A stretch of DNA of 32,000 nt from Trichlorobacter lovleyi SZ (GTDB lineage: Bacteria; Desulfobacterota; Desulfuromonadia; Geobacterales; Pseudopelobacteraceae). The notes below the pieces were generated by a model. That model had not been told where the DNA came from. It saw only the letters and a program-made list of their open reading frames with translations, and ran no database searches. The translations under genes and the position numbers were made by a program. The DNA lies in assembly GCF_000020385.1 (NCBI RefSeq), contig NC_010814.1, positions 2,340,001-2,372,000 on the forward strand. Direction: 5' to 3'. Numbering within the stretch: position 1 is the first letter of the stretch; each line of letters opens with the position of its first letter. Below, in pieces: positions 1-24,642 of the stretch.

Positions 1-450
1 GCCGCTGATGCCGGAGATTGAAGAGACATTGATAATGGCTCCACTGCGGCGGGCCAGCATCTTACGGGCACCCCACTTGCAGCAGTGGAACAGGGGGGAC
101 AGATTGGTACGCAGCACCGCATCCCAGTCATCTTCAGCCATCATGGCCAGAAAACCATCGCGGATAATCCCGGCATTGTTGACCAGGACATCAAGATACC
201 CGCTTGCTGCAGTGGCAGCATCAATCAGGCTGGTTGCCCCGCTGGAAGTAGCAACATCAGCCTTGATGGTGGTGATACTGCCTGCCAGCTCTGCTGCATC
301 CAGACGCAGCCTGTCCGCAGCCTCATCATTGTTCAGGTAGGCGGCAAAGACGGTGGCACCTGCTGCGGCAAAGCGCAGGGATACTGCCCGGCCAATGCCC
401 CGGGTACCACCGGTAACCACGACAACGTTATGTTCAAATTCCAGTCCCAT
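1..450 (-). CDS. FabG-like short-chain dehydrogenase/3-oxoacyl-ACP reductase (C-terminus runs off the window)
   Basis: This ORF is missing from the track because it is open to the window edge. The reverse complement of 1-450 reads without stops: MGLEFEHNVVVVTGGTRGIGRAVSLRFAAAGATVFAAYLNNDE...VLVNNAGIIRDGFLAMMAEDDWDAVLRTNL...GAIINVSSISGISG. It carries the TGxxxGIG Rossmann motif plus the NNAG and NxSS motifs of classical SDRs. A GAGGTG Shine-Dalgarno (SD) sequence lies about 9 nt upstream of the ATG at 448-450. The + strand ORFs at 8-340 and 85-486 are its shadows. Confidence 0.85.
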   Translation of the reverse strand, partial: MGLEFEHNVVVVTGGTRGIGRAVSLRFAAAGATVFAAYLNNDEAADRLRLDAAELAGSITTIKADVATSSGATSLIDAATAASGYLDVLVNNAGIIRDGFLAMMAEDDWDAVLRTNLSPLFHCCKWGARKMLARRSGAIINVSSISGISG

Positions 451-611
451 ATCAAACAACCACCTCAAGATTCTATAAACAGATAGTATTCCAGTTTCAA
501 ATCAAGGATGAGATCAAGGCGGCGAGGAATTCGGCGACGCAGGCGTACACGCAGTACGTTGAGGAGCCGATGACGAGCCAACGCAGATATCGCCTTGAGT
601 TGGAACTGGAA

Positions 612-1994
612 TCACTTCATCGGGGCGATTCTACTTCTTCCCATCCGCTTCAGCAACTTCCAAAGTGGTCCCCGCACCTTGAACATCCGCAACGCCTCCA
701 GCATGGTGTCGCTGATATTCACCTCCAGACCCGGTACAATCCAGTTTTTACGCTGCATTGCCTGTTCTGTCACAATCGTTGAAAGCCGGTCCCTGATGGC
801 CGGAGCCAGGTAAAAGGTAGGCTGCAGCAGATCTGTTTCAACGGTAATAATCCCCTCGTCCAGGGCGGTACGATACAGCCTGGTGCGGGGGTAGATCCGC
901 ACCCCGGTCATGGCAATGACGGCGGTAGGATTCAGTTCATCCATCAGCTGAAAGGTATCCAGAATGGTCTCTTCTGTCTCTCCTGGTCCGCCAAAGATGA
1001 TGTAGTGGGCAAAATCCAGCCCCGCCTCCCGGCAAAGCAGCGAGGCAGATCTGACCTGTCCGAGTGTAAACGATTTACAGAGACTTGTTAACATGCCAGG
1101 TGAACCGGAGTCAGTGCCGAACTCAATCGCATCGCAGCCGGCCCGCTGCATCAGATCCAGAAGCTGCGGTGTGATAAAATCCGGATTGATAAAGGCAGAC
1201 CAGTTAACCTGTAACCCGGCATCAATCATGGCTGTGCAGAGCTGTTCACAAAAGCTGACCGGGTAGTTAAAGATATCATCCACAAAATAGAGATAATCAA
1301 CACCATGATCATTCACCAGACTGCGGATCTCGGCAATAATCTCAGCCACCGGTCTGGTCCGCATCTGCTGGCCTTCCAGCAGCGGATAGGTGCAGTAACT
1401 GCAACCAAAGGGACAGCCCCGTTTGGTCTGCAGATTGGCCATGCCCCCTTCCTTCAGGTAGCGGGCCACATCAAACAGCTCCCGATCAGGACTGCCGATT
1501 CTGGAAACTGTTTGCGGCGGGATAAAGTCGATTTTCCCCGGCAGCACAACACCGGGCAGATCAGCCGGATCAATCCCTTGTGCCAGCCGGTCCAGCAGAA
1601 GGGGCAGCTGCTGCTCCCCCTCCCCCACCAGACCGATATCAGCACCGCAGGCAGCCAGGATCTCCAGCGGCATCAGGCTGAAACCTGAACCACCCACAAT
1701 GACGGTTGCCCTGCCTTTGCAGACCGTTACCAGATCAGTCAGACCGGACAGATAGGAACGGGCATCAGGCCAGGTAACATTATCCAGATTACGCAGCGAA
1801 ATGATCACCGCCTCAGGCTGTTCAGCAACAACCGTTGCCTGGAGCGCAGCAAGGGGATCGGCTTCAAAACAGAGATCCAGCACTGCCAACTGATGACCGG
1901 CCTGTTTGAGCGGGGCTGCCAGAAAGGCCAGACCAAGGGGAAAGACCGGATAGGGGGAACGCTCCCGGTTTGCCGAAACCAGCAGCAGCTTCAT
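612..1994 (-). CDS. Cobalamin(B12)-binding-domain radical SAM protein (lipid-cluster type)
   Basis: 460 aa. The N-terminal region is B12-binding-like (MKLLLVSANRE...AVIISLRN). The radical SAM cluster motif is RGCPFGCSYCTYP (CxxxCxxC). Its ATG at 1992-1994 overlaps the TGA of the upstream thioesterase gene (ATGA). Confidence 0.85.
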   Translation of the reverse strand: MKLLLVSANRERSPYPVFPLGLAFLAAPLKQAGHQLAVLDLCFEADPLAALQATVVAEQPEAVIISLRNLDNVTWPDARSYLSGLTDLVTVCKGRATVIVGGSGFSLMPLEILAACGADIGLVGEGEQQLPLLLDRLAQGIDPADLPGVVLPGKIDFIPPQTVSRIGSPDRELFDVARYLKEGGMANLQTKRGCPFGCSYCTYPLLEGQQMRTRPVAEIIAEIRSLVNDHGVDYLYFVDDIFNYPVSFCEQLCTAMIDAGLQVNWSAFINPDFITPQLLDLMQRAGCDAIEFGTDSGSPGMLTSLCKSFTLGQVRSASLLCREAGLDFAHYIIFGGPGETEETILDTFQLMDELNPTAVIAMTGVRIYPRTRLYRTALDEGIITVETDLLQPTFYLAPAIRDRLSTIVTEQAMQRKNWIVPGLEVNISDTMLEALRMFKVRGPLWKLLKRMGRSRIAPMK

Positions 1995-2422
1995 CGGCAG
2001 ACACCTTCATCCAGCCAGGCCCGCATGTTGGCCACCCTCTGTTCCACTTCCACCGGCAGACGATACTGCAGTACGCCGTTCATATCGGTCAGTGCATGGC
2101 AGACCAGACCAGTGGCCAGCCGCTGACCATCGACAGACAGCATCTCACAGCGAAAACGCAGCATGGCCGCTGCATCATCCTCCAGCCAGGTTCGAATCGT
2201 GACGACATCATTAAACAGGGCAGGCCGCAGGTACTTCAGTTCAAGTGACACCACCGGCCCCTGATAGCCCAAGGCCAACAGGTCATCCGGCCCAAGGCCG
2301 AACTGGCCGGACAGGTTATTGCGGCCGATTTCCATCCAGGCCACATAATGGCCGTGCCAGGCCACCTGATAGCTGTCCACCTCATTGAATCTGACCGTGA
2401 TTTCTGTTTCATCCCAACTCAT
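1991..2422 (-). CDS. Hotdog-fold acyl-CoA/acyl-ACP thioesterase (4HBT/YbgC-like)
   Basis: 143 aa. The N-terminus, VRFNEVDSYQVAWHGHYVAWMEIGR, is typical of 4HBT-type thioesterases. Its ATG at 2420-2422 overlaps the hsdR TGA at 2419-2421. Confidence 0.8.
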   Translation of the reverse strand: MSWDETEITVRFNEVDSYQVAWHGHYVAWMEIGRNNLSGQFGLGPDDLLALGYQGPVVSLELKYLRPALFNDVVTIRTWLEDDAAAMLRFRCEMLSVDGQRLATGLVCHALTDMNGVLQYRLPVEVEQRVANMRAWLDEGVCR

Positions 2423-5418
2423 GCCGGTGCAACCGGTTTCGGTGGTTCACAAGCTACATTCGTCATGGCAAACACCATATCTGAGACACTCCGCTTAAAA
2501 GATTCATTCTCAACAAACTGCTTGTAGGCCTCGGTATCATCCTTGAGCAGTGACAGCATGACCCGCGCCAACGCCTTGTCATGCTCCAGGCGGGCAGCAT
2601 TCGGGGTATTCTGTTTGGCGTTCCGGTAAGCCTGATCAGCTGCCACTTTAGGAGCGACATCATCCTGGATACGCTTTGCAACACGATCAACATCGCTAAA
2701 CAGGGTACCGAACTGTTCGTTGAACGATTTAAGGATATTGGTGAGCTTATCCATATCAGGCTGCGGTTTTCCACCACCACCGCCTACCGGTATTGGATCG
2801 ATTTCTGCTTCTTCATCTGCAAGGATGATGTTCATAACAGCCTGTTTTTCGGTACGATAGCTATCCATATCAATGGATTCCAGTATCCCCTTGGAGAGAT
2901 CCTCCTCTTGGGGGGCAGGCAGTTTTGGTATCAAAAAGGACAGGAAGATGGAGAGTTTTTCCCAATCAACATCGCTATAAGGCAAAATAGAAGACAGGAA
3001 TTCATAGGTGCGTGTAAACGCCTTGGCCTTGCCCTTGAAATCAATCTGGGCATCCTCATGCAACTCCTCAATATAAACCGCCACACAGGCGTCCAACAGT
3101 GGGTCTAACTTGTCACGTTGAGCGCCACCAAGATACAGCCCTACCAGCTCATCCACAACTGCCGCACGGTAGACGTGATAGTTGTCCAGTACCGCCTTCA
3201 GGTCATGAAGCTTGTTAGGGTCAGTCTCTTCACTCAAGACCGTAGTGCGGTAATAATCGGCAAAGGCGGCCTGAATCGTGTCAGCGTCATTCATAAAATC
3301 CAGCACAAACACGTCGTGTTTGCGAGGATGGGCACGATTCAACCGCGACAGGGTCTGCACTGCCTTGATGCCGGAGAGGGTCTTATCCACATACATGGTA
3401 TGTAGCAGCGGCTCATCATAGCCGGTTTGAAACTTATCGGCGCAAACCAGAATGCGGTACGGGTCTTCCTGAATTTTGTCTGCGATGTCTCCACTGGGGA
3501 AGCCATTCAGGGATGCCTCAGTAACCTTCTGACCTCGAAAATCATACTCACCGGAAAACGCAACAATGGCCTGGTATGGACTTTTCTGCTCCTCCAGGTA
3601 GGACTTAATGGCATGGAAATACTGGATAGCGCGCTCTATACCGTTGCAGACCACCATGACACGGGCCTGCCCACCGATCTTACCCTTGGCAATAACCTGC
3701 TCGCGGAAGTGATCCACCATGATCTCTGCTTTCAGCCGAATGGCGTGATCATGGCTTTCAACATACCGGCGCAGCTTTTTCTGGGCCTTGTTCTTGTCAA
3801 ACTCGGGGTCGTCTTTAACCTTCTTGATCAACTTGTAATAGCTGTTAACCGGGGTATAGCTTTTGAGCACATCCAGGATGAATCCCTCCTGAATCGCCTG
3901 TTTCATGGTGTAACAGTGGAATGGGCGATGCTTGACCTTCCCCTCTTCGCCCGGATACGGCTCACCAAATATCTCCAGCGTCTTGTTCTTGGGGGTGGCG
4001 GTGAAGGCGAAGTAGCTGGCGTTGGTAAGCATCTTCCGGGCCGCCATCCGTTTTTCCAGTACATCGTTGATCTCGTCTTCAGGGTCGGTCAGGGCTGCGT
4101 TCAATGCCCCGGCAGCCTTCCCCCCCTGGCTGGAGTGTGCTTCATCGATGATGATGGCAAAGCTCCGCCCCCGGTGCTCATCACCGATCTCATTCAGGAT
4201 ATAGGGGAACTTTTGCACCGTGCTGATGATGATCTTCTTGCCGGATTCTATGAACTTCCGCAGGTCGCCGGAGTGCTCTGCGTGCCCCACGGTGGAGCCA
4301 ACCTGCATGAAGCCCTTGATGGTGTTTTTGATCTGATCATCGAGAATGCGGCGGTCAGTAATGACGATGATTGAGTCAAAGAGATCCTTCCCGTCCTTGC
4401 GCAAAGCGACCAACTGATGGGCCAGCCAGGCGATGGAGTTGGACTTGCCGCTGCCAGCCGAATGTTGGATCAGATAACGCTGCCCCACGCCTTGCTTCAG
4501 CGCATCGGCCAGCAACCGCCGCACCACATCCAACTGGTGATACCGGGGAAACACCTGTTTGCGGGATTTCTTACGGGTTTTGGGGTTTATCTCTTCAACA
4601 ATCTGGGCATAGTTCTCAATGATGTCAGTAACGCCCTGAAGGGTAAGAACCCGTTTCCAGAGGTAGTCGGTCTTGAGGCCGTGCGGATTGGGCGGATTCC
4701 CGGCACCGTCATTCCAGCCCAGGTTGAACGGCAGGAACCATGAACCCTTTCCCTTAAGCTCGGTACACATCTGTACCTCACGGTCATCCACCGCAAAATG
4801 GACGATGCAGCGACCGAAGCTGAACAGCCGCTCCCGAGGATCGCGGTCCCGGCGGTACTGCTCAATGGCGTCCTCCACCGTCTGCTTGGTCAGGCTGTTC
4901 TTCAGTTCAAAGGTGGCAATGGGCAGGCCGTTGATGAACAGAGCAAGATCCAATGCCCGGCGGGTTTCATCACGACTGTAGCGGAGTTGTCGGGTGAGGC
5001 TGAAACGGTTGGCAATGTACAACTGGGCTGCCTTGTCATTACCAGGGGATGGGCTGCCATAGAAGAGGTCGATATGGTACTTCTCGTGCTTTACCCCTTT
5101 GCGCAGCAGGTCAATCACCCCACGCCTGGCGCATTCAGACTCTACACGGGCCAGAAACCGGCGGCGTACCGGCGTGTCCTTCTCCAGTTCAAGAGCAGTG
5201 GCGATCTCCGGTTGGGTTGCCTCTACAAAGGCATGCAACTGTGTCACATCAACGCAGTATTCCCGATCATAGTCACGGGCATCACCCAACAACCAGCCGG
5301 TACCGCCAAACGGCTCAACCGGATCATGCACACCACCAGCCGCAACAACTGCGGTTCGGCCGGTCATGGTGGTGCAGATCAGATCCTCCAGGCCACGCTC
5401 ACTGGTATCAGTGGTCAT
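2419..5418 (-). CDS. hsdR: Type I restriction enzyme R subunit
   Basis: 999 aa. The N-terminal PD-(D/E)xK-like nuclease motif is DLALFINGLPIATFELKN. The helicase Walker A motif is HSAGSGKSNSIAW and the DEAH box is IIIDEAHSSQ. Helicase motif VI-like QTLSRLNR is present, and the long C-terminal domain is typical of HsdR. Its ATG overlaps the darG TGA (ATGA at 5415-5418). Confidence 0.93.
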   Translation of the reverse strand: MTTDTSERGLEDLICTTMTGRTAVVAAGGVHDPVEPFGGTGWLLGDARDYDREYCVDVTQLHAFVEATQPEIATALELEKDTPVRRRFLARVESECARRGVIDLLRKGVKHEKYHIDLFYGSPSPGNDKAAQLYIANRFSLTRQLRYSRDETRRALDLALFINGLPIATFELKNSLTKQTVEDAIEQYRRDRDPRERLFSFGRCIVHFAVDDREVQMCTELKGKGSWFLPFNLGWNDGAGNPPNPHGLKTDYLWKRVLTLQGVTDIIENYAQIVEEINPKTRKKSRKQVFPRYHQLDVVRRLLADALKQGVGQRYLIQHSAGSGKSNSIAWLAHQLVALRKDGKDLFDSIIVITDRRILDDQIKNTIKGFMQVGSTVGHAEHSGDLRKFIESGKKIIISTVQKFPYILNEIGDEHRGRSFAIIIDEAHSSQGGKAAGALNAALTDPEDEINDVLEKRMAARKMLTNASYFAFTATPKNKTLEIFGEPYPGEEGKVKHRPFHCYTMKQAIQEGFILDVLKSYTPVNSYYKLIKKVKDDPEFDKNKAQKKLRRYVESHDHAIRLKAEIMVDHFREQVIAKGKIGGQARVMVVCNGIERAIQYFHAIKSYLEEQKSPYQAIVAFSGEYDFRGQKVTEASLNGFPSGDIADKIQEDPYRILVCADKFQTGYDEPLLHTMYVDKTLSGIKAVQTLSRLNRAHPRKHDVFVLDFMNDADTIQAAFADYYRTTVLSEETDPNKLHDLKAVLDNYHVYRAAVVDELVGLYLGGAQRDKLDPLLDACVAVYIEELHEDAQIDFKGKAKAFTRTYEFLSSILPYSDVDWEKLSIFLSFLIPKLPAPQEEDLSKGILESIDMDSYRTEKQAVMNIILADEEAEIDPIPVGGGGGKPQPDMDKLTNILKSFNEQFGTLFSDVDRVAKRIQDDVAPKVAADQAYRNAKQNTPNAARLEHDKALARVMLSLLKDDTEAYKQFVENESFKRSVSDMVFAMTNVACEPPKPVAPA

Positions 5419-6482
5419 GCGCTACCTGCCAATGACGGTATCCAGCCTTTTTTCGATAGCATGAACACAGCCAGAGCTATTTGCCGTGGGGTAAACTGAC
5501 GCTTACGGTCATTCCAACCATAAACCCGCGCTGTGACTTCCTCCAGTGAACAGGCTTGCTCCTGGCTTACCACCCAATGCACCGTTGCCAACAGCTCCAG
5601 GCCAAAGGGGGTTTCAAACCCTTCTACCAGTTCAAAGACACGGTTCATCCGGTTAACCGTATCCGGCTGTTCTTGCAGGAATGTTTGCGCATCCACCAGG
5701 GCACCCGGTACCAACTCCAACTGTTTATCCGGCGCATCACCGCCATCAGCGTAGCCCGAGACCAGATGTCCCTCTACAGCCCGCAAGACATGCCGCAGGT
5801 TTTCGGCATAGGGACCATAAGGAGCCTTGGTGTAATTCAGTCGTAGCGGTTCCTGTGCTGCCTGCATAAAGTACATCAACTTGTGTACCTCCAGCAGGGT
5901 AATGAAGGGGTCCAACAGCCCTGCCAGATAGCGGTGCATCAGCCCCACCAGTGCAGCCCGGCCTGGTGTCATCTTCGGAACATCGCTGGAGCGGTTCGCA
6001 CGCTCATCAGCCTTATCAGGAGCCGGTTCAAAGATGACCACCCGCAGCCCCTCAACCCCTTGCAAAGCGGCTTCAATACGGGGACGCACCTGCTTCCAGT
6101 CCAATCCGCCAAGACCGGCGCCCAACGGTGGTATGGCAATAGAGCTGATCTTGCGTATTCTGATCTCTTCAACCAAGGCCACCAGACCTGCATCTATATC
6201 TTCTATTCGACTCTTGGCCTTCCAATGTCGTTTGGTTGGAAAATTGATAACAAAACGTGGATTGGTGAGACGACCGGTTTCATACACAAACATCCGCCCC
6301 GGTTGCACTTCATTCAGCTTGCAGGCCGCAGCATAGGCCTTGAAGTTGTCCGGATAGGTGTTCTTAAACTGCAGGGCAATCCCCCGTCCCATGATACCGA
6401 CGCAGTTTACGGTGTTCACCACTGCCTCAACATCCTCGGCCAGTATGTTACCGGTTTTGTATTCAATCATGGCTTGCCTCAT
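5415..6482 (-). CDS. darG: DarG-like macrodomain antitoxin (ADP-ribosyl-DNA glycohydrolase)
   Basis: 355 aa. The N-terminal macrodomain signature is MIEYKTGNILAEDVEAVVNTVNCVGIMGRGIALQFK...IAIPPLGAGLGGLDW. The C-terminal domain of about 190 aa fits DarG. The gene lies immediately downstream of a DUF4433/DarT gene. An alternative start is the ATG at 6468-6470 (MIEYK...), which has a GAGG 6 nt upstream. Confidence 0.85.
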   Translation of the reverse strand: MRQAMIEYKTGNILAEDVEAVVNTVNCVGIMGRGIALQFKNTYPDNFKAYAAACKLNEVQPGRMFVYETGRLTNPRFVINFPTKRHWKAKSRIEDIDAGLVALVEEIRIRKISSIAIPPLGAGLGGLDWKQVRPRIEAALQGVEGLRVVIFEPAPDKADERANRSSDVPKMTPGRAALVGLMHRYLAGLLDPFITLLEVHKLMYFMQAAQEPLRLNYTKAPYGPYAENLRHVLRAVEGHLVSGYADGGDAPDKQLELVPGALVDAQTFLQEQPDTVNRMNRVFELVEGFETPFGLELLATVHWVVSQEQACSLEEVTARVYGWNDRKRQFTPRQIALAVFMLSKKGWIPSLAGSA

Positions 6483-6488
6483 AACGGT

Positions 6489-13114: not shown

Positions 13115-14391
13115 GTTGTTTTCTCCTCCCTGCCGTAAATCCCGCCCCGCCGCAGGAGGTTGTACAACAGGTTGACCCCTTTGCCGGGGCTCTGCATGAC
13201 CCGTCCGGCAATCGCAGGCCAGCGGTAGGCCTCTTGGCGGGCCTGTACCCAGCCATTGTATAGACGTTCAGGAGACATCTGCTTGGGCTGATATACCACC
13301 TGACCATGGTCATAGCGCTGCCAGTCAGTATGCAGCAACCTCCCCTCCTGCTGAAACTGCGAGAACAGCGCAGTGCCGGGATAGGGGGTCAGAATATGAA
13401 AGGTGGGCAGGCTGGCTGCACAGTTTTCCAGGTAACGCACGGTTCGCTCAAACACTCCTGCATCATGATCGTCAAATCCAAAGATAACCGAGGCCTCCAC
13501 CACCACGCCGGTATCCCGGACCCGCTTGATCAGGTCAGCCTGGGAGGTCTTGCCGGCGGTCTTGGGGAGGTTGGCATACTCGCCATCCACAGATTCAAGC
13601 CCCACAAAAATACCGACACAACCGGAGGCAGCCAGCAGCCGGACCAGTTCCGGGTCTTCAGCAAAACGCAGGTTGGCTTGTCCGCCCCACTTCAACCCCA
13701 TACCGGCCATCCCACGCAGGATCGGCTTGGCCCGTTCCGGGTCCCCCAGGATATTGTCATCCAGAAACACCATCAGACCTGGCTTGAAACTCCTCAGTTC
13801 TGCCAACACATCCTCCGGCTCACGGTAGCGAAAGGTACGTCCGAAGTGGGGGGTAACCGTACAGAAGGGACAGTTGTAGGGGCAGCCGCGGCTGGCCTGC
13901 AGGGTCCTGGTGGTCAGATATTTACGGGGGGCCAGGAAATCATGGCGTGACCAGGGAATGGACAACTGATCCCCCTCCGGCAGCACCTGATAGAACGGCT
14001 GTAACTGTCCCTGTTGCAGATCATGCAGCAAAGCGGCCCAGACCGGCTCGGCCTCCCCCAGCACCACGCTGTCGGCATGTTTGATCGCCTCATCCGGCAG
14101 CACCGTGGGATGGATCCCCCCCAGCACCACCGGCACCCCCCGTGCGCGAAAGCGATCCGCAATCCGGTAGGCCCGCACCGCCTGATGGGTCATGGCCGTG
14201 ATCCCAACCAGGTCATAGTCACCATCAAAATCAATTTCTTCCTGCACCTCGTCAGCAAGCAGCACCTCCCATTCAGGCGGTGTGGCAGCGGCGACCTGCT
14301 TAAGAGACAGGGAAGGCAGCTGAAATCGCTTGACCCAGCCCAGTTTATGGGTGGCAGGGTACACCAGCAGCAGACGGGGTTTTACGGTCAT
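13111..14391 (-). CDS. Cobalamin-binding-domain radical SAM protein (paralog of 14388-15674)
   Basis: 426 aa with SRGCPYNCPFCTV, GLKW, CVGIFVGLES and ILTPYPGT. It aligns along its whole length with the 428-aa neighbour. It shows ATGA overlap with the upstream gene. Confidence 0.85.
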   Translation of the reverse strand: MTVKPRLLLVYPATHKLGWVKRFQLPSLSLKQVAAATPPEWEVLLADEVQEEIDFDGDYDLVGITAMTHQAVRAYRIADRFRARGVPVVLGGIHPTVLPDEAIKHADSVVLGEAEPVWAALLHDLQQGQLQPFYQVLPEGDQLSIPWSRHDFLAPRKYLTTRTLQASRGCPYNCPFCTVTPHFGRTFRYREPEDVLAELRSFKPGLMVFLDDNILGDPERAKPILRGMAGMGLKWGGQANLRFAEDPELVRLLAASGCVGIFVGLESVDGEYANLPKTAGKTSQADLIKRVRDTGVVVEASVIFGFDDHDAGVFERTVRYLENCAASLPTFHILTPYPGTALFSQFQQEGRLLHTDWQRYDHGQVVYQPKQMSPERLYNGWVQARQEAYRWPAIAGRVMQSPGKGVNLLYNLLRRGGIYGREEKTT

Positions 14392-15674
14392 GCATCGGCC
14401 CGTTTTTTTCGGATGGCGGAGCGGAAGCCGATATTCATCGGACCAAAGACCTGGACAGAACGGTGCAGCTTGAAGATACGGCGGTAGATGGAGCCCCAGG
14501 AGTAGAAACTGCGGCAGGCCTGATCATAGCCGTCCTGCAGTTGTTGGACCGTCATCCCCCGAGGCTGGAAGGTAACATGCTCCATATCGTAATCCTGCCA
14601 GTTATTGCTGATAATCCGCCCTTCAGCCTCAAGTCTCTGTCGCACCTTGGTACCGGGATAAGGGGTCAGGATCGGGAAGATGGCGGCCTCAAGCCGGGCA
14701 TCTTCGCAGAAGCGCAGGGTCTGTTCAAAGACCGCCGGAGTATCGCCATCGCAACCCATCACAAAGGAGCCCAGGATGCCGATGCCGTGATCCCGAAACT
14801 GCTGGGCATAGGCTTTGTAGGACGCAGCCTTGTTGGTTACCTTGCCCATGGCTGCCAGAGAGTCCTGATTCAGCGATTCAAAACCGACGAACATGCCGAC
14901 ACAACCGGATTCACCGGCAGCCTTTAAGAGCTCTTGATCTTCTGCAAAATCAATCGGGGCGTGGGAGAGCCACTTCAGGCCCATCCCCTTCATCCCCTCA
15001 AAGAGCGGTAAGGAATAACGCCGGTCAGCCACGATGTTGTCATCCACAAAAAAGACAAAGGAGTTGGCCTTACGCAGTTCCTGCAGTTCGGCCAGCACCT
15101 GCTCCAGTGGACGTTTGCGGTATTTGCGCCCGTAAAAGGCGGTGACCGAGCAGAACTCGCAATCAAAGGGACAACCGCGGGTAGTCTGGATGGTATTGGT
15201 AAAGAGATGACCGGAACCTTTGAAGATCTCCCGCCTGGCCTGGGGAATCAAGGCTGTGTCTATCAGCCCGTCTGCCCGATAAAGCCGCTGCAGTTGACCC
15301 GCCTGAAAGTCTGCTAACAACCGGGGCCAGACCAGCTCCCCCTCTCCCACCACGACACTATCCACATGCTGCAGCGACTCATCCGGCAGGTTACTGGCGT
15401 GAAAGCCCCCCATCACCACCGTCTTGCCACGGCTGCGAAAGGCATCCGCCAGCTGGTAGGCACGGGTTGCCTGGGCGGTCATGGCGGTCAGGGCGATCAG
15501 GTCTGCATCGGTATCAAAGTTAGTTGCACGGACAGCATCATCATGAAAGCTGACATCCCAATCCTGAGGAGTAACCGCAGCCAGGGATGCCAGTGACAGG
15601 GTGGGAAATTTAAAGCCCAGTTCTCCCCACAACCGACCTTTGGGCCAACCAGGGGAGAGAAAGAGAATTTTCAT
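14388..15674 (-). CDS. Cobalamin-binding-domain radical SAM protein (paralog of 13111-14391)
   Basis: 428 aa with TRGCPFDCEFCSV, GLKW, CVGMFVGFES and ILTPYPGT. Confidence 0.85.
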   Translation of the reverse strand: MKILFLSPGWPKGRLWGELGFKFPTLSLASLAAVTPQDWDVSFHDDAVRATNFDTDADLIALTAMTAQATRAYQLADAFRSRGKTVVMGGFHASNLPDESLQHVDSVVVGEGELVWPRLLADFQAGQLQRLYRADGLIDTALIPQARREIFKGSGHLFTNTIQTTRGCPFDCEFCSVTAFYGRKYRKRPLEQVLAELQELRKANSFVFFVDDNIVADRRYSLPLFEGMKGMGLKWLSHAPIDFAEDQELLKAAGESGCVGMFVGFESLNQDSLAAMGKVTNKAASYKAYAQQFRDHGIGILGSFVMGCDGDTPAVFEQTLRFCEDARLEAAIFPILTPYPGTKVRQRLEAEGRIISNNWQDYDMEHVTFQPRGMTVQQLQDGYDQACRSFYSWGSIYRRIFKLHRSVQVFGPMNIGFRSAIRKKRADA

Positions 15675-15689
15675 CAGCTGTTCCGGTGG

Positions 15690-15947
15690 CTACTTGCCGT
15701 TTTCAGCGATGTAACCGGCCATAGCCCGCACAGAGGCAAACACCTTGGTACCGGTTGCAGCATCAGGCACCACAACACCAAAATCCTTTTCCATTGCCAC
15801 CACCAGCTGCAAGGCATCTATGGAGTCAAGCCCCAGTCCTTCACCGAACAGGGGGGCATCACTGTCAATCTCGTCCGCAGACATCCCCTCAATCCGCAGG
15901 GCATCAATAATCATCTGTTTTACTTTGGGAATCAGCTCATCACTCAT
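15690..15947 (-). CDS. Acyl carrier protein
   Basis: 85 aa and acidic. The phosphopantetheine attachment motif is LGLDSIDALQLV. It overlaps the upstream acyltransferase gene by 8 nt. Confidence 0.85.
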   Translation of the reverse strand: MSDELIPKVKQMIIDALRIEGMSADEIDSDAPLFGEGLGLDSIDALQLVVAMEKDFGVVVPDAATGTKVFASVRAMAGYIAENGK

Positions 15948-16848
15948 CTGCTATCCTTTTCTTGCGGGAAGTGTCGGCCCAAAAATCAAAAAAGTTATAC
16001 CACTGATCCGGATACTGTCGAATGTAACGTTCAAAAACAGCAACCAGCTGCTCCATACCGGCCTTGATTGACTGGCGATGGTGGCCGTGGCTGCTCTGAA
16101 AGAATATCGGCTCATCCATCAGCGTTGCGTAGCGGCCATCAGGCAGAAGCGGGACAAACACCGGCAATACCGGCGCGCCAGTGGCCATGGCAAGATAGGC
16201 AGCGCCAACCGGAATATCCGTTGGCTGGCCGAAAAAATCAAGCTGAACCGTATTGGAAGAGCCATCGCGGTCACCGATCAGACAGATAATCTCGTTGCGC
16301 CGCAGGGCGTTAACCGCCTCTATCACTGCCAGAGGTGAGGTGTCATGGCGGTCAACGTAGATCACGCCGATGCCCCGTTCTGTGCGCACCTGCTCTCGCT
16401 GCTGGTTGACCTTTGCATCCGGCTCGGGAAAGGTCATCACATGCAGCTTGTAGCCCAGATCCGCCAGGCCAAGTCCCCCCAGCTCCCAGTTACCGAAATG
16501 GGGCGAGACCAGGATCGCGCCGCTGCCTTTGGCAAGGGCATCATCCAGCGCCTTGCCGGAACTGCGTTGGCCGATCAGGGCCTGAAGACGGTCGCCCCGC
16601 AACTGGATCATCAGCATCACATCACACCAGTTCCGGGCATATTTGTAGTAACTGGCGATCAGCAGCCTCTCAACCTGCCGTCTGCCGGTCACTATCCGCA
16701 GGTTCGCCCGCATGCCCCGGCGCTGCCGTGGTGTCAGCAGGTAAAACAGTGTCCCCCAGAACAGGGCAAAGGGGGCATGCAGCCAGCGGGGCACCAGCAT
16801 GGTAAACAGCTTGATAAAGAACAGGTTGAGACTGCTGTAAAGCGACAT
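15940..16848 (-). CDS. LpxL/HtrB-type lysophospholipid (lauroyl/myristoyl) acyltransferase family protein
   Basis: 302 aa with an N-terminal hydrophobic anchor. The HX4(D/E) motif is SPHFGNWELGG, and PVGAAYLAMATGAPVLPV is also present. Its ATG shares one base with the upstream TAA (TAATG). Confidence 0.8.
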   Translation of the reverse strand: MSLYSSLNLFFIKLFTMLVPRWLHAPFALFWGTLFYLLTPRQRRGMRANLRIVTGRRQVERLLIASYYKYARNWCDVMLMIQLRGDRLQALIGQRSSGKALDDALAKGSGAILVSPHFGNWELGGLGLADLGYKLHVMTFPEPDAKVNQQREQVRTERGIGVIYVDRHDTSPLAVIEAVNALRRNEIICLIGDRDGSSNTVQLDFFGQPTDIPVGAAYLAMATGAPVLPVFVPLLPDGRYATLMDEPIFFQSSHGHHRQSIKAGMEQLVAVFERYIRQYPDQWYNFFDFWADTSRKKRIADE

Positions 16849-18230
16849 TATCCGTTACGGGTTCCGTTCTTTTTGTTAAAGGCCGGATGTTCCCTGAACT
16901 CATCTTCCCAGACCTGGTCAGCGATCTCGCCATAGCTGCGCGAATAGTGATCCATCTGGTCGGCCAGGCCGGTAAATATCTCTTCTGCTCCGGCATGGGT
17001 CGGATAGGCCCCTTCACTCTCAAAAAATTCACGGCCGTTTTCCGGATGGTCAATCAGCATGCAGGGACGCAACAGGTTGTCATGCTCCCCCTGTTTTTCA
17101 CGGATTTTACGGAACAGTGCCGAGCCCAGGGCATCCTTCAGGCTGGTGCGACGGATATTATCCACGGCAAAATGGCAGAAGACACACGGCTCAATATCCC
17201 CGCTGGCATTGATATGCAGGTATTTACGTCCGGCAGCCAGGCAGCCGGAGATCATCGGACCGTCATTCCAGAAATCAACAAACAGCATCGGCTTGCTGGC
17301 CCGGAACTGAATCGTTGCCCGCCGCAGCTGGTCACGCTGTTCCGGTGACGGCATCAGGGCCGGATCCGGTTCTCTGCCCACCGGCACATAGGAGAACAGC
17401 CAGAGTGCAAACACCCCCTGTTCCAGCAGGAAGTCGATATAGGCCGGATCGGTGATGATGTCGGTATTTTTGCTGGAATGGGTGAAGGAACCGCAGAAGG
17501 AGAGTCCGTTTTCACGCAGCAGACGCATGGCGTTCATGACCTTTTTAAAGTGACCGGCACCCCGCCGCTCATCGGTTTCCTGCTCATACCCTTCCAGCGA
17601 GAAGGCCGGCATGACGTTACCCACCGCAATCAGACGCTGCACCAGGGTATCATCAATCAGCCCGCCATGGGTAAAGACCAGAAAGGCCATGTCGCTATGC
17701 TTTTCAAACAGCTCAAAAATGCCTTCCATGAAAAACGGTTCACCGCCGGAGATCACCGCAAAGTAGATCCCCATCTCCTTCATCTGGGTCAGCACGCCAT
17801 CAATCTCGTCCAGGGTTAATTCAAGGGACTTGTTGTAGTCTCCGGCGTAGCAGCCGTAACAGGACAGGTTGCAGCGCATGGTGACCGAGATGACCACGGT
17901 GGATGGTGGGTAGAAACCGTTCGCATCAGCCCATTCCTTACGTTTGTTGGTGCCGGAGAGCAGATGATTGATCGCCAGGTTGGTGATCCACTTGTCACGC
18001 TGATTGGGATGCAGCTCCTTCAGAATCCGGCGCGGAAATTCAATGGAGGGATGCTTCTGCTGTACAAGATTGCGGATCCAGCGGATACGGTCCCGGTAGT
18101 ACTCCTTCTTGGGGATCATCTCCATCAGGTGGGTCATCTTGATCAGGGTTTCATCAGATGAGCTGGTCGCCATATTCAACAGATAGGATACGACTTTATC
18201 ACGGGTATATGTCTTCAGTGACTGCAGCAT
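16848..18230 (-). CDS. Radical SAM protein with a C-terminal SPASM/twitch-like Cys motif (no B12 domain)
   Basis: 460 aa. The radical SAM motif is MRCNLSCYGCYAGDY and the GGEP motif is ISGGEPFF. The C-terminal motif is GCLAAGRKYLHINASGDIEPCVFCH. A helical N-terminal extension of about 105 aa precedes the core. Confidence 0.8.
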   Translation of the reverse strand: MLQSLKTYTRDKVVSYLLNMATSSSDETLIKMTHLMEMIPKKEYYRDRIRWIRNLVQQKHPSIEFPRRILKELHPNQRDKWITNLAINHLLSGTNKRKEWADANGFYPPSTVVISVTMRCNLSCYGCYAGDYNKSLELTLDEIDGVLTQMKEMGIYFAVISGGEPFFMEGIFELFEKHSDMAFLVFTHGGLIDDTLVQRLIAVGNVMPAFSLEGYEQETDERRGAGHFKKVMNAMRLLRENGLSFCGSFTHSSKNTDIITDPAYIDFLLEQGVFALWLFSYVPVGREPDPALMPSPEQRDQLRRATIQFRASKPMLFVDFWNDGPMISGCLAAGRKYLHINASGDIEPCVFCHFAVDNIRRTSLKDALGSALFRKIREKQGEHDNLLRPCMLIDHPENGREFFESEGAYPTHAGAEEIFTGLADQMDHYSRSYGEIADQVWEDEFREHPAFNKKNGTRNG

Positions 18231-18241
18231 TGGCCGCCTCT

Positions 18242-18904
18242 CTACATGTATCTCAGGAATGTCATACAGATATTCCAGGTATCCTGCACCGGACGATAAT
18301 GGCTGGTGGCCCGTCCGTCGGCAACCCGTGCCGGAACCGGCAGCGAACCGATCTTAAAACCGGCCTTCCAGCCCTTCACCAGCAGTTCCATCTCCAGATC
18401 ATAGCCATCTTTTTCAAGCCTCACCGCACGCAGCAGCCTGGCATGGTAAAAACGAAAACCGGACTGGCTATCGGTAATTTCAAATCCGGTCCGTTTACGG
18501 ATGCACCAGACACCAAAACGGTTCCAGACCTTGCGCAGGCCTGCCATTTCTTCAAATTGACTATGCCGGGATGCGAGAAGACAATCATAACCTTTTTTGT
18601 CAGCTTCAGCAAGTAACCGTGAAATAGCGCTGGGATCATGCTGGCCATCGGCATCAAGGGTGACGACTCCATCATACTGCTGCTGGATTGCCCAGGCAAA
18701 ACCGGTCTTGAGGGCAGCCCCCTTGCCCCTGTTGACCGGATGGCTCAACAGGGTGACCGGCAGCCCGTCAAGGGTTTCAGCCGTAGCGTCAGTGGAACCG
18801 TCATCAACCACAACAAGCGGGTAGCCGTGTGTCAGTGACTCCAGCACCACCTCTCTGAGTGTAGCGGCAGCATTATAGGCTGGTATCAGGATACAGGGGG
18901 ACAC
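18242..18904 (-). CDS. Family 2 glycosyltransferase (short, polyprenyl-phosphate/lipid-sugar transferase-like)
   Basis: 220 aa with ILIPAYNAA, VVVDDGSTD and TLDADGQHDP (DxD). It has a GTG start at 18902-18904 and overlaps the end of the deacetylase gene by 19 nt. Confidence 0.85.
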   Translation of the reverse strand: MSPCILIPAYNAAATLREVVLESLTHGYPLVVVDDGSTDATAETLDGLPVTLLSHPVNRGKGAALKTGFAWAIQQQYDGVVTLDADGQHDPSAISRLLAEADKKGYDCLLASRHSQFEEMAGLRKVWNRFGVWCIRKRTGFEITDSQSGFRFYHARLLRAVRLEKDGYDLEMELLVKGWKAGFKIGSLPVPARVADGRATSHYRPVQDTWNICMTFLRYM

Positions 18905-19737
18905 GATTCAAGCAACTCCACTAACGGTTTAAAGGTATGGCTTACCAGCAGCTTTTCCAGGCGTTTCCCGGAACCGGCACGGGGGCCATACGCCAGAAAG
19001 CCTCGCAACAGGGGTAGTGGCAGGCGGGGGCTGTCGGGATCCAGCTCCCGGGGATGCACAAACAGTACTCCCGGCACCCCTGCCAGCTGACAGCTGTGTA
19101 AGGCACGCTCAATCATCCCATAGGGAAACGCCCTGAAGCCCCAGCCCCCTCCGACCGGTAGATTTCCCAGCAGAGATTGCGCAACCAACGGCGGGAACTC
19201 ACAGATGCTCCCCTGTGACGTCTTAATCAGATGCGGCGCCCGCGGCCCGTTCGGATCGCCGATGGCGGCAAGCGGTGTCAGGCTGCTGTCGTAACGATAG
19301 CCAAGCTCTTTCAGGATTTCAAAGGCCCAGGGGGTCTTGCGTCTATCCAGGGACCAGCGGGGCGCCCTGAAACCAAGCGGCGTACAGCCGGTCTGCTGCC
19401 TCAGCACGGCAGCTGTACGTTCAAGTTCAGACCTGAATTCAGCCGGTGTCAACCCGGTGACCAGGCGATGCGACCAACCGTGGGAAGCAAGCTCGTGCCC
19501 ATCGGCAACAATTGCAGGAGCCAGCTCCGGAAAAGTATCTGCCACCTCACCAAGCATGAAGAAGGTCGCCCTGCTGCCCTGCCCGCGCAGCAGGTCCAGC
19601 AGCCGCCGGGTGGCAGCAACAACCCGTGATTGCCTGCGATACTCCGGCAGAATCTCCGCCCCACAGACATGGAACCAATCCTCAACGTCAACGGTCAGGC
19701 TGTGGCAGACGGATTCTGGCGATCCCGAAATTAGCAT
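18886..19737 (-). CDS. Polysaccharide deacetylase family protein (NodB-homology)
   Basis: 283 aa with LTVDVEDWFH, ATFFMLGEVA and HELASHGWSH motifs. It appears to be the first gene of the minus-strand cluster. Confidence 0.85.
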   Translation of the reverse strand: MLISGSPESVCHSLTVDVEDWFHVCGAEILPEYRRQSRVVAATRRLLDLLRGQGSRATFFMLGEVADTFPELAPAIVADGHELASHGWSHRLVTGLTPAEFRSELERTAAVLRQQTGCTPLGFRAPRWSLDRRKTPWAFEILKELGYRYDSSLTPLAAIGDPNGPRAPHLIKTSQGSICEFPPLVAQSLLGNLPVGGGWGFRAFPYGMIERALHSCQLAGVPGVLFVHPRELDPDSPRLPLPLLRGFLAYGPRAGSGKRLEKLLVSHTFKPLVELLESCPPVS

Positions 19738-23622: not shown

Positions 23623-23632
23623 GTGTACCCCC

Positions 23633-24301: not shown

Positions 24302-24491
24302 AAACTCCCTTCCTTTTATGATGTAGTGATGATGCTCACTGCGTGACAAACAGCCAAGAATACGTCCGGTTATACGCCCTGCGGTGGTCCCCGCCAGTTA
24401 AGCCTGCGATAATGCTGCATGAAGAGCCTCCTTGTGGGGTGTCTATGTTGTGTCCAGATCCTGTCCTGGTCAGTATTTCAAAGCACCGCGC

Positions 24492-24520
24492 ATACTAAAC
24501 GCCGTTTTAGGAAATTGCAA
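24492..24520 (-). promoter_or_regulatory. Candidate sigma70 promoter for frdCAB
   Basis: The minus strand reads TTGCAA-17 nt-TAGTAT, which implies a 5' leader of about 185 nt. Confidence 0.35.
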
Positions 24521-24602
24521 GGATTTTATGTATACAGCATACAAACCTGCCCCGCCCTGCCAGGTCATCTGACGCCCCATGGCACTTCTGACGCAAAGCA
24601 GG

Positions 24603-24631
24603 TGGACATGTGTCAAAACCCGTGTTATAAA
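24603..24631 (+). promoter_or_regulatory. Candidate sigma70 promoter for tRNA-Leu
   Basis: TGGACA-17 nt-TATAAA, with the -10 ending 11 nt before the mature tRNA 5' end. Confidence 0.4.
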
Positions 24632-24642
24632 GTTCGTCCTCT

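What the first reader, a model, noticed from the sequence alone, without database searches (positions are those of the whole stretch)
1..19737. ACP-centred lipid-type cluster dominated by radical SAM chemistry (four B12-type plus one SPASM/twitch-type), with no ketosynthase in view
Reading the minus strand and ignoring the 8.4-kb defence block, the gene order is as follows:
- polysaccharide deacetylase, GT2, radical SAM, LpxL/HtrB-type acyltransferase, ACP
- three B12-domain radical SAM proteins, then the FabD-like acyltransferase
- hotdog thioesterase, a fourth B12-domain radical SAM protein, then the FabG-like SDR

Most junctions are 1-19 nt overlaps, and two have small gaps of 11-15 nt. The exception is a 161-nt gap before the FabG-like gene. 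This implies one translationally coupled operon.

No KS, dehydratase or enoyl reductase is visible. The distinctive steps would therefore be radical methylation, cyclisation or C-C coupling on an ACP- or lipid-bound chain.

From memory, NCBI/TIGRFAMs has a family named 'lipid biosynthesis B12 binding/radical SAM protein'. It was defined from the candidate ladderane-lipid clusters of anammox bacteria and look-alike clusters in Deltaproteobacteria. To my knowledge the product of the deltaproteobacterial clusters has not been established.
Basis: partly seen in the sequence, partly recalled or inferred. Interest (0 to 1): 0.8.

Follow-up and report, generated by a model that had tools for sequence, protein, structure and literature searches.

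The report
Orphan radical-SAM lipid cluster of Geobacter relatives
This is one copy of a conserved but still uncharacterised "ladderane-like" gene cluster of Geobacter-type bacteria; it probably builds a radical-SAM-modified fatty or polyene chain on its own carrier protein and exports it to the outer membrane, and its "missing" ketosynthase lies just past the window edge.

Summary
One of the four B12-type radical SAM proteins (612-1994) passes the curated cut-off of TIGR04072, "lipid biosynthesis B12-binding/radical SAM protein".

"No ketosynthase in view" is a window-edge artefact. In close relatives the truncated FabG is followed directly by KS, a Cys-less KS-like chain-length factor, a FabZ-like dehydratase, LolA-like, LolB-like and MMPL genes.

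The 16-gene core is collinear across Geobacterales: 37 of 40 loci spanning the deacetylase to LolA keep all 14 core genes of that stretch. Only the SPASM enzyme, B12a (14388-15674) and B12d (612-1994) are core. B12b and B12c are accessory, and 45 of 63 loci lack both between ACP and the acyltransferase.

The architecture matches the aryl-polyene logic of a type II PKS/FAS, a lipid anchor and outer-membrane export, but without aryl-starter genes. This cluster type was noted in Geobacter and Pelobacter in 2009. I found no paper naming its product.

Verdict: a new member of a known orphan kind, of moderate interest.

Side findings:
- A type I R-M/DarTG cassette is spliced into the operon.
- Acidobacteriota carry a stand-alone B12a+B12d pair.

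The parts
18886..19737 (-). Polysaccharide deacetylase + DUF3473. First gene of the conserved cluster.
   Evidence: PF01522 77 bits and PF11959 105 bits. Nearest NCBIfam is the XrtA-system deacetylase TIGR03006, 196 bits against a cut-off of 276. Present in the loci that reach this far upstream; none of the 40 loci that span it and LolA lacks any core gene other than B12a or LpxL.
18242..18904 (-). GT2 glycosyltransferase of the polyprenyl-phosphate-sugar type
   Evidence: PF00535 90 bits. Best NCBIfam hits are PpgS, AglJ and ArnC, all below cut-off. 59-86% identical across loci.
16848..18230 (-). Radical SAM protein with a C-terminal SPASM/twitch-type Cys domain and a roughly 100-aa N-terminal extension. 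Core gene.
   Evidence: PF04055 68 bits and PF13186 31 bits. Best families are NirJ2/AhbD at 81-86 bits against cut-offs of 500. Best solved relative is SkfB at 55 bits. 71-96% identical in nearly all Geobacterales loci (56% in L016).
15940..16848 (-). LpxL/HtrB-family acyltransferase. Overlaps the ACP gene by 8 nt.
   Evidence: PF03279 107 bits. Best NCBIfam is PIM acyltransferase PRK07920, 126 bits against 209. Missing only in L008 among full loci.
15690..15947 (-). Dedicated acyl carrier protein with a DSI phosphopantetheine-attachment motif
   Evidence: PF00550 44 bits. NF006617 69.0 bits against a cut-off of 70. Best solved relative is the aryl-polyene ACP ApeE, 9LS6, at 60.7 bits; the next-best ACP scores 35 bits.
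14388..15674 (-). B12a: B12-binding radical SAM + DUF4070. Core gene.
   Evidence: PF02310, PF04055 and PF13282. No NCBIfam near cut-off; best is HpnJ at 95 bits against 578. Present in 60 of 63 loci spanning ACP..AT. Paired with B12d as an isolated two-gene unit in Acidobacteriota.
13111..14391 (-). B12b: paralogue of B12a. Accessory gene.
   Evidence: 43% identical to B12a. Found in 24 of 63 loci, sometimes relocated.
11687..13114 (-). B12c: HpnR-like B12-binding radical SAM. Accessory gene.
   Evidence: Best family is HpnR at 226 bits against a cut-off of 650. Found in 9 of 63 loci.
10848..11690 (-). FabD/MdcH-like acyltransferase, probably malonyl-CoA:ACP. Has the EHSLG serine motif.
   Evidence: PF00698 59 bits. 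MdcH 139 bits and FabD 116 bits, both below cut-off. The 280-aa gene call comes from the identical contig. Sequence read.
2419..10851 (-). Inserted defence cassette: hsdM (8512-10848), hsdS (7130-8515), darT (6489-7130), darG (5415-6482), hsdR (2419-5418). Not part of the lipid pathway.
   Evidence: Pfam. PADLOC: MTase_I 855 bits, Specificity_I 324, DarT 219, DarG 449, REase_I 151. Absent between the acyltransferase and thioesterase genes in every fetched relative that spans them, including those at 90-94% identity, except L007.
1991..2422 (-). YbgC/4HBT-type hotdog thioesterase
   Evidence: PF13279 and PF03061. TIGR00051 53 bits against 69. Conserved next to the acyltransferase in all loci.
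612..1994 (-). B12d: TIGR04072 "lipid biosynthesis B12-binding/radical SAM protein". Core gene.
   Evidence: 392.4 bits against a cut-off of 360. Next best are BzaD at 224 bits and TsrM-type at 130 bits. Best solved relative is TsrM 6WTE at 115 bits. 567 related loci in species-representative genomes. 1635 50%-identity clusters at E<=1e-30.
489..611 (.). 123-nt element bounded by 19-bp imperfect inverted repeats, inside the B12d/FabG spacer
   Evidence: Five independent assemblies end 58 nt past the B12d stop. The element is found only in loci carrying the identical protein.
1..450 (-). FabG-like 3-oxoacyl-ACP reductase, N-terminal 150 aa. The gene runs off the window.
   Evidence: PF00106 121 bits. 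The full-length orthologue in L007 scores TIGR01830 272 bits against 298 and is followed by KS, CLF, DH, LolA, LolB and MMPL.
20022..20891 (-). Orphan Cas6-like gene between sdhB and the cluster. Its link to the cluster is unclear.
   Evidence: PF10040 43 bits. PADLOC Cas6 135 bits over the full length. In the same position in 15 of the fetched Geobacterales loci, at only 26-44% identity. No repeat array in the window.

Best explanation
The region is the upstream two-thirds of a conserved Geobacterales cluster. It encodes a dedicated type II fatty-acid/polyketide-like synthase whose product is tailored by radical SAM enzymes, attached to a glycolipid anchor and exported to the outer membrane.

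Proposed course; every step is inferred from homology and none was shown here:
1. The FabD/MdcH-like acyltransferase loads malonyl units on the dedicated ACP.
2. The KS plus Cys-less KS-like partner, FabG and the FabZ-like dehydratase (all but the start of FabG lie just beyond the window) extend the chain. No cluster-encoded enoyl reductase is present, so the chain is likely unsaturated or polyene-like.
3. The core radical SAM set (SPASM enzyme, B12a, B12d) modifies the ACP-bound or lipid-bound chain. The nearest characterised relatives of B12d are cobalamin-dependent C-methylases of sp2 carbons (BzaD, TsrM). The HpnR-like B12c and the B12a paralogue B12b come and go between species like tailoring enzymes. 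I therefore favour C-methylation, at least for the accessory enzymes.
4. The hotdog thioesterase edits or releases the chain.
5. The LpxL-type acyltransferase moves the chain from ACP to an acceptor made by the GT2 and the deacetylase, perhaps an amino-sugar-phosphate lipid.
6. MMPL, LolA-like and LolB-like proteins carry the product to the outer membrane, as proposed for aryl-polyene lipids.

The type I R-M/DarTG block is a later insertion and not part of the pathway.
For: The downstream genes KS, CLF, DH, LolA, LolB and MMPL follow FabG in L007 (84% identity), L009 (90%), L008 and most other loci. The KS keeps its Cys, HGTGT and GH motifs. Its partner has Phe at the Cys position and lacks the C-terminal domain, like the G. 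sulfurreducens paralogue tabulated by Rattray 2009.

Co-conservation is strong:
- 37 of 40 loci spanning the deacetylase to LolA keep all 14 core genes.
- 65 of 73 loci are collinear.

No enoyl-reductase or other unassigned gene appears inside the cluster in the Pfam-annotated relatives. The extra DNA found in some loci is unrelated cargo.

The ACP is nearest to ApeE of the aryl-polyene pathway. That pathway uses an acyltransferase, a GT, an RND exporter and LolA/LolB-like proteins to build and export a GalNAc-phosphate-glycerol lipid.

B12d scores highest against BzaD, TsrM and PhpK after its own family. B12c scores highest against HpnR. Core and accessory status comes, and the B12a/B12b paralogy.
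Against: - No chemistry is known for any of the five radical SAM proteins. Their scores against characterised families are far below cut-offs, and solved relatives are remote.
- The KS is closer to housekeeping FabF (269 bits) than to the aryl-polyene KSs in 7F27/7F28 (160-173 bits). The dehydratase is only a distant FabZ relative. The chain could therefore be an ordinary saturated acyl chain finished by the housekeeping FabI.
- The B12a+B12d pair stands alone in Acidobacteriota with no ACP or KS within 8-10 kb. These two enzymes may therefore act on a common membrane lipid rather than on the cluster's own ACP-bound chain.
- B12-binding radical SAM enzymes also include non-methylating members such as BchE and AprD4, which also appear among the weak hits.
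- The downstream genes are inferred from relatives. They were not seen in this genome.
Confidence: 0.5

Rival explanations
1. The radical SAM enzymes form carbon-carbon bonds (ring closure, cross-linking or coupling of two chains) on a polyunsaturated chain. This is the chemistry proposed for ladderane synthesis in anammox bacteria. The Geobacterales product would then be an unrecognised carbocyclic or cross-linked lipid.
For: - B12d belongs to the family named for the candidate ladderane clusters.
- Gene content overlaps the Kuenenia kuste3335-3352 cluster: ACP, FabF plus non-canonical FabF, FabZ, FabG, GT, deacetylase-like protein and radical SAM enzymes.
- Three radical SAM enzymes are core, which is more than simple tailoring would need.
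- Weak hits include the cyclase BchE and HpnJ.
Against: - The papers read associate ladderanes strictly with anammox Planctomycetota. Desulfotalea, which has the syntenic cluster, made no ladderanes.
- The phytoene-desaturase-like genes and SAM methylases of the anammox clusters are absent here.
- The role of any radical SAM enzyme in ladderane synthesis is itself unproven.
Confidence: 0.15
2. The cluster is an oxygen-independent route to polyunsaturated fatty acids or hydrocarbons (Rattray 2009). The radical SAM enzymes would act before or after polyene formation. For example, the AhbD/NirJ-like SPASM enzyme could decarboxylate the acid to an alkene.
For: - Desulfotalea, with a syntenic cluster, contains unusual polyunsaturated hydrocarbons.
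- KS/CLF+KR+DH without an enoyl reductase is the polyene-making arrangement.
- The nearest families of the SPASM enzyme are oxidative decarboxylases of haem pathways, though at only 81-86 bits.
Against: - A free hydrocarbon or fatty acid does not explain the conserved LpxL-type acyltransferase, GT2, deacetylase and LolA/LolB/MMPL export genes.
- The link between the Desulfotalea hydrocarbons and this cluster was never tested.
- From my own knowledge, such hydrocarbons are usually made by the Pfa/Ole pathways.
Confidence: 0.15
3. The cluster remodels lipid A or LPS. The special acyl chain is placed on lipid A or a core sugar by the LpxL-type enzyme, and the GT2 plus deacetylase act like ArnC/ArnD to make an amino-sugar donor.
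For: - The acyltransferase is of the LpxL/HtrB family.
- The GT2 hits ArnC-type enzymes and the deacetylase belongs to the same fold family as ArnD.
- A PagL lipid A deacylase gene lies at the distal end of the cluster in several relatives.
Against: - The acyltransferase scores best against PIM acyltransferase and far below every lipid A family cut-off.
- PagL is on the opposite strand and is seen in only 10 of the fetched loci.
- LPS already has its own export route (Lpt, from my own knowledge), so a dedicated LolA/LolB/MMPL set would be unnecessary.
Confidence: 0.1

Closest known systems
Candidate ladderane / extended FASII clusters of Kuenenia stuttgartiensis (kuste3335-3352, 2802-2805, 3603-3608) and the syntenic clusters of Desulfotalea, Geobacter and Pelobacter (Rattray et al. 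2009, PMC2649909)
   Same: - Dedicated ACP.
- FabF plus a non-canonical FabF lacking the catalytic Cys.
- FabZ, FabG, a glycosyltransferase and a polysaccharide-deacetylase-like protein.
- Several radical SAM enzymes, including a B12-binding type.
- The product is unknown outside anammox bacteria, and no enzyme has been characterised.
   Different: - No phytoene-desaturase-like gene, no SAM methylase and no phenylacetyl-CoA-ligase-like gene here.
- One ACP and one KS/CLF pair instead of several.
- This version adds a FabD-like acyltransferase, an LpxL-type acyltransferase and LolA/LolB/MMPL export genes.
- Orthology to the Kuenenia proteins could not be tested because no Kuenenia sequences were available.
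Aryl-polyene (APE) lipid clusters, apeA-R (Grammbitter et al. 2020, bioRxiv 10.1101/2020.12.19.423268)
   Same: - Type II KS:CLF pair, KR, hotdog dehydratase and thioesterase.
- An ApeE-like ACP, which is the best solved relative of the window ACP.
- A lipid acyltransferase and a glycosyltransferase.
- An RND/MMPL exporter with LolA-like and LolB-like proteins.
- The overall logic of chain on ACP, then sugar-phosphate lipid anchor, then outer membrane.
   Different: - No aryl-starter ligase (ApeH), no SAM methyltransferase (ApeB), and no second KS, ACP or DH.
- The KS is nearer to FabF than to ApeO/ApeR.
- Three to five radical SAM enzymes, a FabD-like acyltransferase and a deacetylase are added.
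Cobalamin-dependent radical SAM methylases BzaD, TsrM, PhpK and HpnR
   Same: B12-binding plus radical SAM architecture. They are the highest-scoring characterised families for B12d (BzaD 224 bits, TsrM-type 130, PhpK 126) and B12c (HpnR 226).
   Different: All scores are far below the family cut-offs of 450-650 bits. The substrates here are unknown, and methyl transfer has not been shown.
Type I restriction-modification operons carrying DarTG
   Same: hsdM-hsdS-darT-darG-hsdR in a single orientation with overlapping genes, and strong model matches.
   Different: The cassette sits inside a biosynthetic operon. Its first and last genes overlap the stop and start codons of the flanking lipid genes.

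Membership tests
TIGR04072 (lipid biosynthesis B12-binding/radical SAM protein) | Whole-protein score at or above the curated cut-off of 360 bits | tested here: met
   The 612-1994 protein scores 392.4 bits. The other three B12 proteins score 64, 58 and 84 bits, so they are not members.
TIGR04072 (lipid biosynthesis B12-binding/radical SAM protein) | B12-binding domain + radical SAM core with CxxxCxxC | tested here: met
   PF02310 49 bits and PF04055 67 bits. The motif C194-x3-C198-x2-C201 is in the translation and invariant in alignment A1.
TIGR04072 (lipid biosynthesis B12-binding/radical SAM protein) | Lies among lipid-synthesis genes | tested here: met
   Flanked by TE, FabG and KS in all Geobacterales loci. 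This does not hold for the Acidobacteriota homologues at 54-58% identity.
Anammox candidate ladderane cluster | ACP with FabF plus a non-canonical FabF lacking the active-site Cys | tested here: met
   ACP is in the window. KS and a Phe-for-Cys partner were seen in relatives L007 and L008, not in the window itself.
Anammox candidate ladderane cluster | Phytoene-desaturase-like oxidoreductase and SAM methylases in the cluster | tested here: not met
   No such Pfam domains in the window genes or in the gene tables of L007 and L008.
Anammox candidate ladderane cluster | Orthology of the radical SAM proteins to kuste2803, kuste3608, kuste3342 and kuste3343 | not testable with these tools
   No Kuenenia sequence could be fetched. 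The representative library carries no names.
Anammox candidate ladderane cluster | The organism makes ladderane lipids | not testable with these tools
   This needs lipid analysis. The papers read restrict ladderanes to anammox Planctomycetota.
Aryl-polyene (APE) cluster | Core set of KS (apeO, apeR), CLF (apeC), ACPs (apeE, apeF), DHs (apeI, apeP), KR (apeQ) and transporter (apeM), as listed | tested here: inconclusive
   One KS, one CLF, one ACP, one DH, KR and MMPL are present in relatives. The second KS, ACP and DH are absent. The DH gives only a weak ApeP-like hit.
Aryl-polyene (APE) cluster | Aryl starter activation (ApeH ligase) and ring methylation (ApeB) | tested here: not met
   No AMP-ligase or class I methyltransferase domain in the window or in L007/L008.
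Type I R-M with DarTG | HsdM, HsdS, HsdR plus DarT and a macrodomain DarG | tested here: met
   Pfam and PADLOC scores of 855, 324, 151, 219 and 449 bits.

The most novel reading that the evidence does not exclude
B12a and B12d form a portable two-enzyme module. The pair stands alone in anaerobic Acidobacteriota and is embedded in the Geobacterales cluster. In this reading it carries out radical chemistry other than simple methylation (ring formation or chain-chain coupling) on lipid chains. Together with the SPASM enzyme it would then produce an undescribed class of outer-membrane lipid that is widespread in anaerobes and mechanistically related to the unsolved ladderane pathway.
Probability: 0.2. 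Interest if true: 0.8.

Novelty: new member of a known kind. Interest (0 to 1): 0.42.

Why it matters
Ladderane biosynthesis is a long-standing open problem. Anammox bacteria have no genetic system, and their radical SAM enzymes have resisted heterologous expression.

The same named enzyme family sits in a tightly conserved cluster across the Geobacterales. That order includes cultivable and (from my own knowledge) genetically tractable species.

This analysis narrows the target to three core radical SAM enzymes. It also shows that natural strains differ by zero to two accessory B12 enzymes, which gives ready-made comparisons for lipidomics. Finally, it places the enzymes in an aryl-polyene-like route from synthesis to anchor to outer-membrane export, which says where to look for the product.

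None of this is new in kind. The cluster type has been known as an orphan since 2009.

Tried and rejected
- Searched for a known product. Literature searches on ladderane+Geobacter, ladderane+antiSMASH+Geobacter, TIGR04072 and "ladderane-like", and G. sulfurreducens locus tags GSU0456-0461 found nothing relevant.
- Looked for a regulatory RNA. Rfam at gathering thresholds finds only tRNA-Leu and no cobalamin riboswitch. Promoter and terminator scans are at chance level.
- Tried to get the taxonomic spread of the B12d family from the 50%-identity representative library. It gives 1635 clusters at E<=1e-30, but the ten I looked up are nearly all unnamed metagenomic proteins.
- Asked whether solved structures could assign chemistry. 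The nearest are TsrM, AprD4, 9CCB, TokK and SkfB, all remote, so I did not spend structure-prediction jobs.
- Tested whether the dehydratase is specifically related to anammox FabZ. It is not; ordinary FabZs score higher.
- Considered that the cluster genes might be a chance juxtaposition. Collinearity across 65 of 73 loci rejects this.
- Considered that the R-M block might belong to the pathway. It is absent from the closest relatives, so I rejected this.

Full report
**Observation**

Pfam and NCBIfam confirm every domain assignment:
- Polysaccharide deacetylase+DUF3473 (18886-19737).
- GT2 (18242-18904).
- Radical SAM with a SPASM-type C-terminus (16848-18230).
- LpxL-family acyltransferase (15940-16848).
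- ACP (15690-15947).
- Three B12-binding radical SAM proteins (14388-15674, 13111-14391, 11687-13114), here called B12a, B12b and B12c.
- A FabD/MdcH-like acyltransferase (10848-11690).
- A hotdog thioesterase (1991-2422).
- A fourth B12-binding radical SAM protein, B12d (612-1994).
- The first 150 codons of a FabG-like reductase (1-450).

The 8.4-kb block at 2419-10851 is a type I restriction-modification system with an embedded DarT/DarG pair.

The recalled family is real. B12d scores 392.4 bits against TIGR04072, whose cut-off is 360. B12a, B12b and B12c score 58-84 bits against that model. They reach no curated cut-off of any family. The SPASM protein likewise reaches none.

**The missing ketosynthase**

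The window ends inside fabG. Contigs carrying the identical B12d protein also stop there, but relatives do not.
- In a metagenomic contig at 84% identity (L007) and in Geobacter sp. SVR (L008), fabG is followed by a FabF-like KS, a shorter KS-like protein with only the N-terminal KS domain, a FabZ/ApeP-like dehydratase, LolA-like and LolB-like proteins and (in L007) an MMPL/HpnN-type exporter.
- A Trichlorobacter genome at 90% identity (L009) shows the same order as far as its contig runs.
- The KS keeps its Cys (TACSSS), HGTGT and GH motifs. Its partner has Phe at the Cys position, as Rattray et al. tabulated for the G. sulfurreducens paralogue.

"No KS or dehydratase" is therefore an edge artefact. 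No enoyl reductase appears in these relatives.

**Conservation**

A scan of species-representative genomes found 567 loci encoding a B12d relative. Eighty were fetched and compared by tblastn with all cluster proteins.
- Across Trichlorobacter, Geobacter, Oryzomonas, Pelotalea, Geomonas, Geotalea and unnamed Geobacterales the order is: deacetylase, GT2, SPASM, LpxL, ACP, B12a, acyltransferase, thioesterase, B12d, FabG, KS, CLF, DH, LolA, LolB, MMPL.
- Of 40 loci spanning the deacetylase to LolA, 37 keep all 14 core genes of that stretch. Of 73 loci, 65 are collinear.
- B12b and B12c are accessory. In 45 of 63 loci only B12a lies between ACP and the acyltransferase. Only three loci share the window's arrangement.
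- The closest named relative, T. thiogenes (94% identity), has B12a alone.
- B12b is a 43% paralogue of B12a. All other pairs are at or below 29%.

The conserved radical SAM set is therefore three enzymes, not five.

The B12d/FabG spacer varies from 23 nt to more than 4 kb. The cluster is probably two transcription units rather than one coupled operon.

**What it resembles**

Two known systems are close.

The first is the set of candidate ladderane clusters of Kuenenia and their look-alikes in Desulfotalea, Geobacter and Pelobacter, described in 2009.
- Shared parts: ACP, FabF plus non-canonical FabF, FabZ, FabG, a GT, a deacetylase-like protein and radical SAM enzymes.
- Parts absent here: the phytoene-desaturase-like genes and SAM methylases.
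- A 2026 review and a 2023 structural paper both state that no radical SAM enzyme of that pathway has been characterised.
- A 2023 survey found "ladderane" calls in many non-anammox phyla, with function unknown.

The second is the aryl-polyene pathway.
- A KS:CLF pair, KR, DH, thioesterase and ACPs build a polyene.
- An acyltransferase and a GT join it to a GalNAc-phosphate-glycerol lipid.
- An RND exporter with LolA-like and LolB-like proteins is proposed to take it to the outer membrane.
- The window ACP's best solved relative is ApeE of that pathway, at 60.7 bits; the next-best ACP in the list scores 35 bits.
- Against membership: the KS is nearer to FabF than to the aryl-polyene KSs, and there is no aryl-starter ligase or ApeB-type methyltransferase.

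It works like an aryl-polyene system in outline, but it is not a member.

**Most likely mechanism** (inferred, not shown)

1. A dedicated ACP is loaded with malonyl units by the FabD-like enzyme.
2. KS/CLF, FabG and the dehydratase extend the chain without a dedicated enoyl reductase.
3. The radical SAM enzymes modify the chain.
4. The thioesterase edits or releases it.
5. The LpxL-type enzyme transfers it to an acceptor made by the GT2 and the deacetylase.
6. The product is exported by MMPL and the LolA/LolB-like proteins.

For the radical SAM steps I favour C-methylation, at least for the accessory enzymes.
- After its own family, B12d's highest-scoring characterised families are the cobalamin-dependent methylases BzaD, TsrM and PhpK.
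- B12c's nearest is the hopanoid C-3 methylase HpnR.
- Enzymes that come and go between close species behave like tailoring steps.

This is weak evidence. All scores are far below cut-offs, and non-methylating B12 enzymes (BchE, AprD4) are also among the weak hits.

**A complication**

In seven Acidobacteriota genomes (Thermoanaerobaculia, Holophagales) homologues of B12a (67-70% identity) and B12d (54-58%) lie side by side. No other cluster gene lies within 8-10 kb, even at E<=1e-3.

Either the rest of the pathway is elsewhere in those genomes, or the pair acts on a common membrane lipid rather than on the cluster's ACP-bound chain. It does show that B12a and B12d travel, and probably work, together.

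**Rival readings**

- Ring-forming or coupling chemistry related to ladderanes.
- An anaerobic polyunsaturated fatty acid or hydrocarbon route, as Rattray et al. proposed.
- Lipid A/LPS remodelling, suggested by the LpxL-family enzyme, the ArnC/ArnD-like pair and a nearby PagL gene in some relatives.

Each is given with its evidence in the rival section. None is excluded.

**The inserted defence block**

The acyltransferase stop codon overlaps the hsdM start (TGATG). The hsdR stop overlaps the thioesterase start (ATGA).

The same junction sequences occur in L007, whose cassette carries a 23S_rRNA_IVP-domain gene in place of DarTG. The closer relatives L009-L011 have no cassette.

The window thioesterase is 92% identical to that of cassette-free T. 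thiogenes and only 60% to L007. Yet its first residues (MSWDET) match L007 (MIWDET) rather than T. thiogenes (VKTHET).

This fits a single original insertion that later spread by homologous recombination through the flanking lipid genes. That is an inference and was not tested further.

Other Geobacterales carry unrelated cargo at nearby junctions:
- An orphan HsdM plus a KilA-N protein, or a YhcG nuclease, between B12a and the acyltransferase.
- MFS, aldo-keto-reductase and PNPOx genes, or a BNR-repeat protein, between B12d and FabG.
- A 1176-aa alpha-amylase-domain protein between LolA and LolB.

**Verdict**

The locus is a new member, an expanded four-B12 variant, of an orphan cluster type recognised since 2009. 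It is not surprising to a specialist. It remains a good experimental handle on an unsolved class of lipid radical SAM enzymes.

Noticed in passing
window 2419-10851; junctions at 10846-10851 and 2419-2422; compare L007 1811-9579: A type I R-M/DarTG cassette is spliced into the lipid operon with start/stop codon overlaps at both ends. The same junctions occur in a relative at 84% identity whose cassette has a 23S_rRNA_IVP-domain gene instead of DarTG. Relatives at 90-94% identity lack the cassette. The mosaic identity of the thioesterase suggests spread by homologous recombination.
   Followed up: partly
window 489-611: A 123-nt element bounded by 19-bp imperfect inverted repeats begins at the base after the B12d stop codon. 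Five independent assemblies with the identical protein break 58 nt past that stop. This suggests a dispersed MITE/REP-like repeat.
   Followed up: partly
L077-L081, L085, L086 (e.g. L077 8693-11386): Acidobacteriota (Thermoanaerobaculia, Holophagales) carry adjacent B12a and B12d homologues with no other cluster gene nearby. B12a is as similar to the Trichlorobacter protein (67-70%) as many Geobacterales orthologues are, which hints at lateral transfer of the pair.
   Followed up: partly
window 20022-20891: An orphan Cas6-like gene (PADLOC Cas6, 135 bits, full length) lies between sdhB and the cluster. There are no other cas genes and no repeat array in the window. It keeps this position in 15 of the fetched Geobacterales loci but diverges fast (26-44% identity, while neighbouring genes are 80-97%).
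   Followed up: partly
L023 5955-8322; L067 7309-8634; L029 11388-15191; L025 11419-15426; L043 15801-19331: Different Geobacterales carry unrelated insertions inside the same cluster: an orphan HsdM plus KilA-N; a YhcG PDDEXK nuclease; MFS, aldo-keto-reductase and PNPOx genes; a BNR/sortilin-repeat protein; and a 1176-aa alpha-amylase-domain protein. The acyltransferase flank and the B12d/FabG spacer look like recurrent landing sites.
   Followed up: partly
L007 19324-20745 (minus strand); also L057, L066: A fifth, distinct B12-binding radical SAM gene (nearest ApyD, HpnJ and BchE at 174-182 bits) lies next to a PagL gene on the opposite strand, just past the MMPL gene, in some relatives.
   Followed up: no
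proteins P0189, P0215, P0239: The representative library holds proteins of 2100-2300 aa with four or five separate stretches matching B12d. These may be tandem fusions of B12/radical SAM domains.
   Followed up: no
window 20951-31007: The rest of the window is housekeeping or unrelated: succinate dehydrogenase/fumarate reductase subunits (20951-24349), tRNA-Leu(taa) (24643-24729), a flavin oxidoreductase, a HAD hydrolase, a DUF3373 protein (27128-28855), a BrnA antitoxin (29261-29623) and a ferritin.
   Followed up: yes
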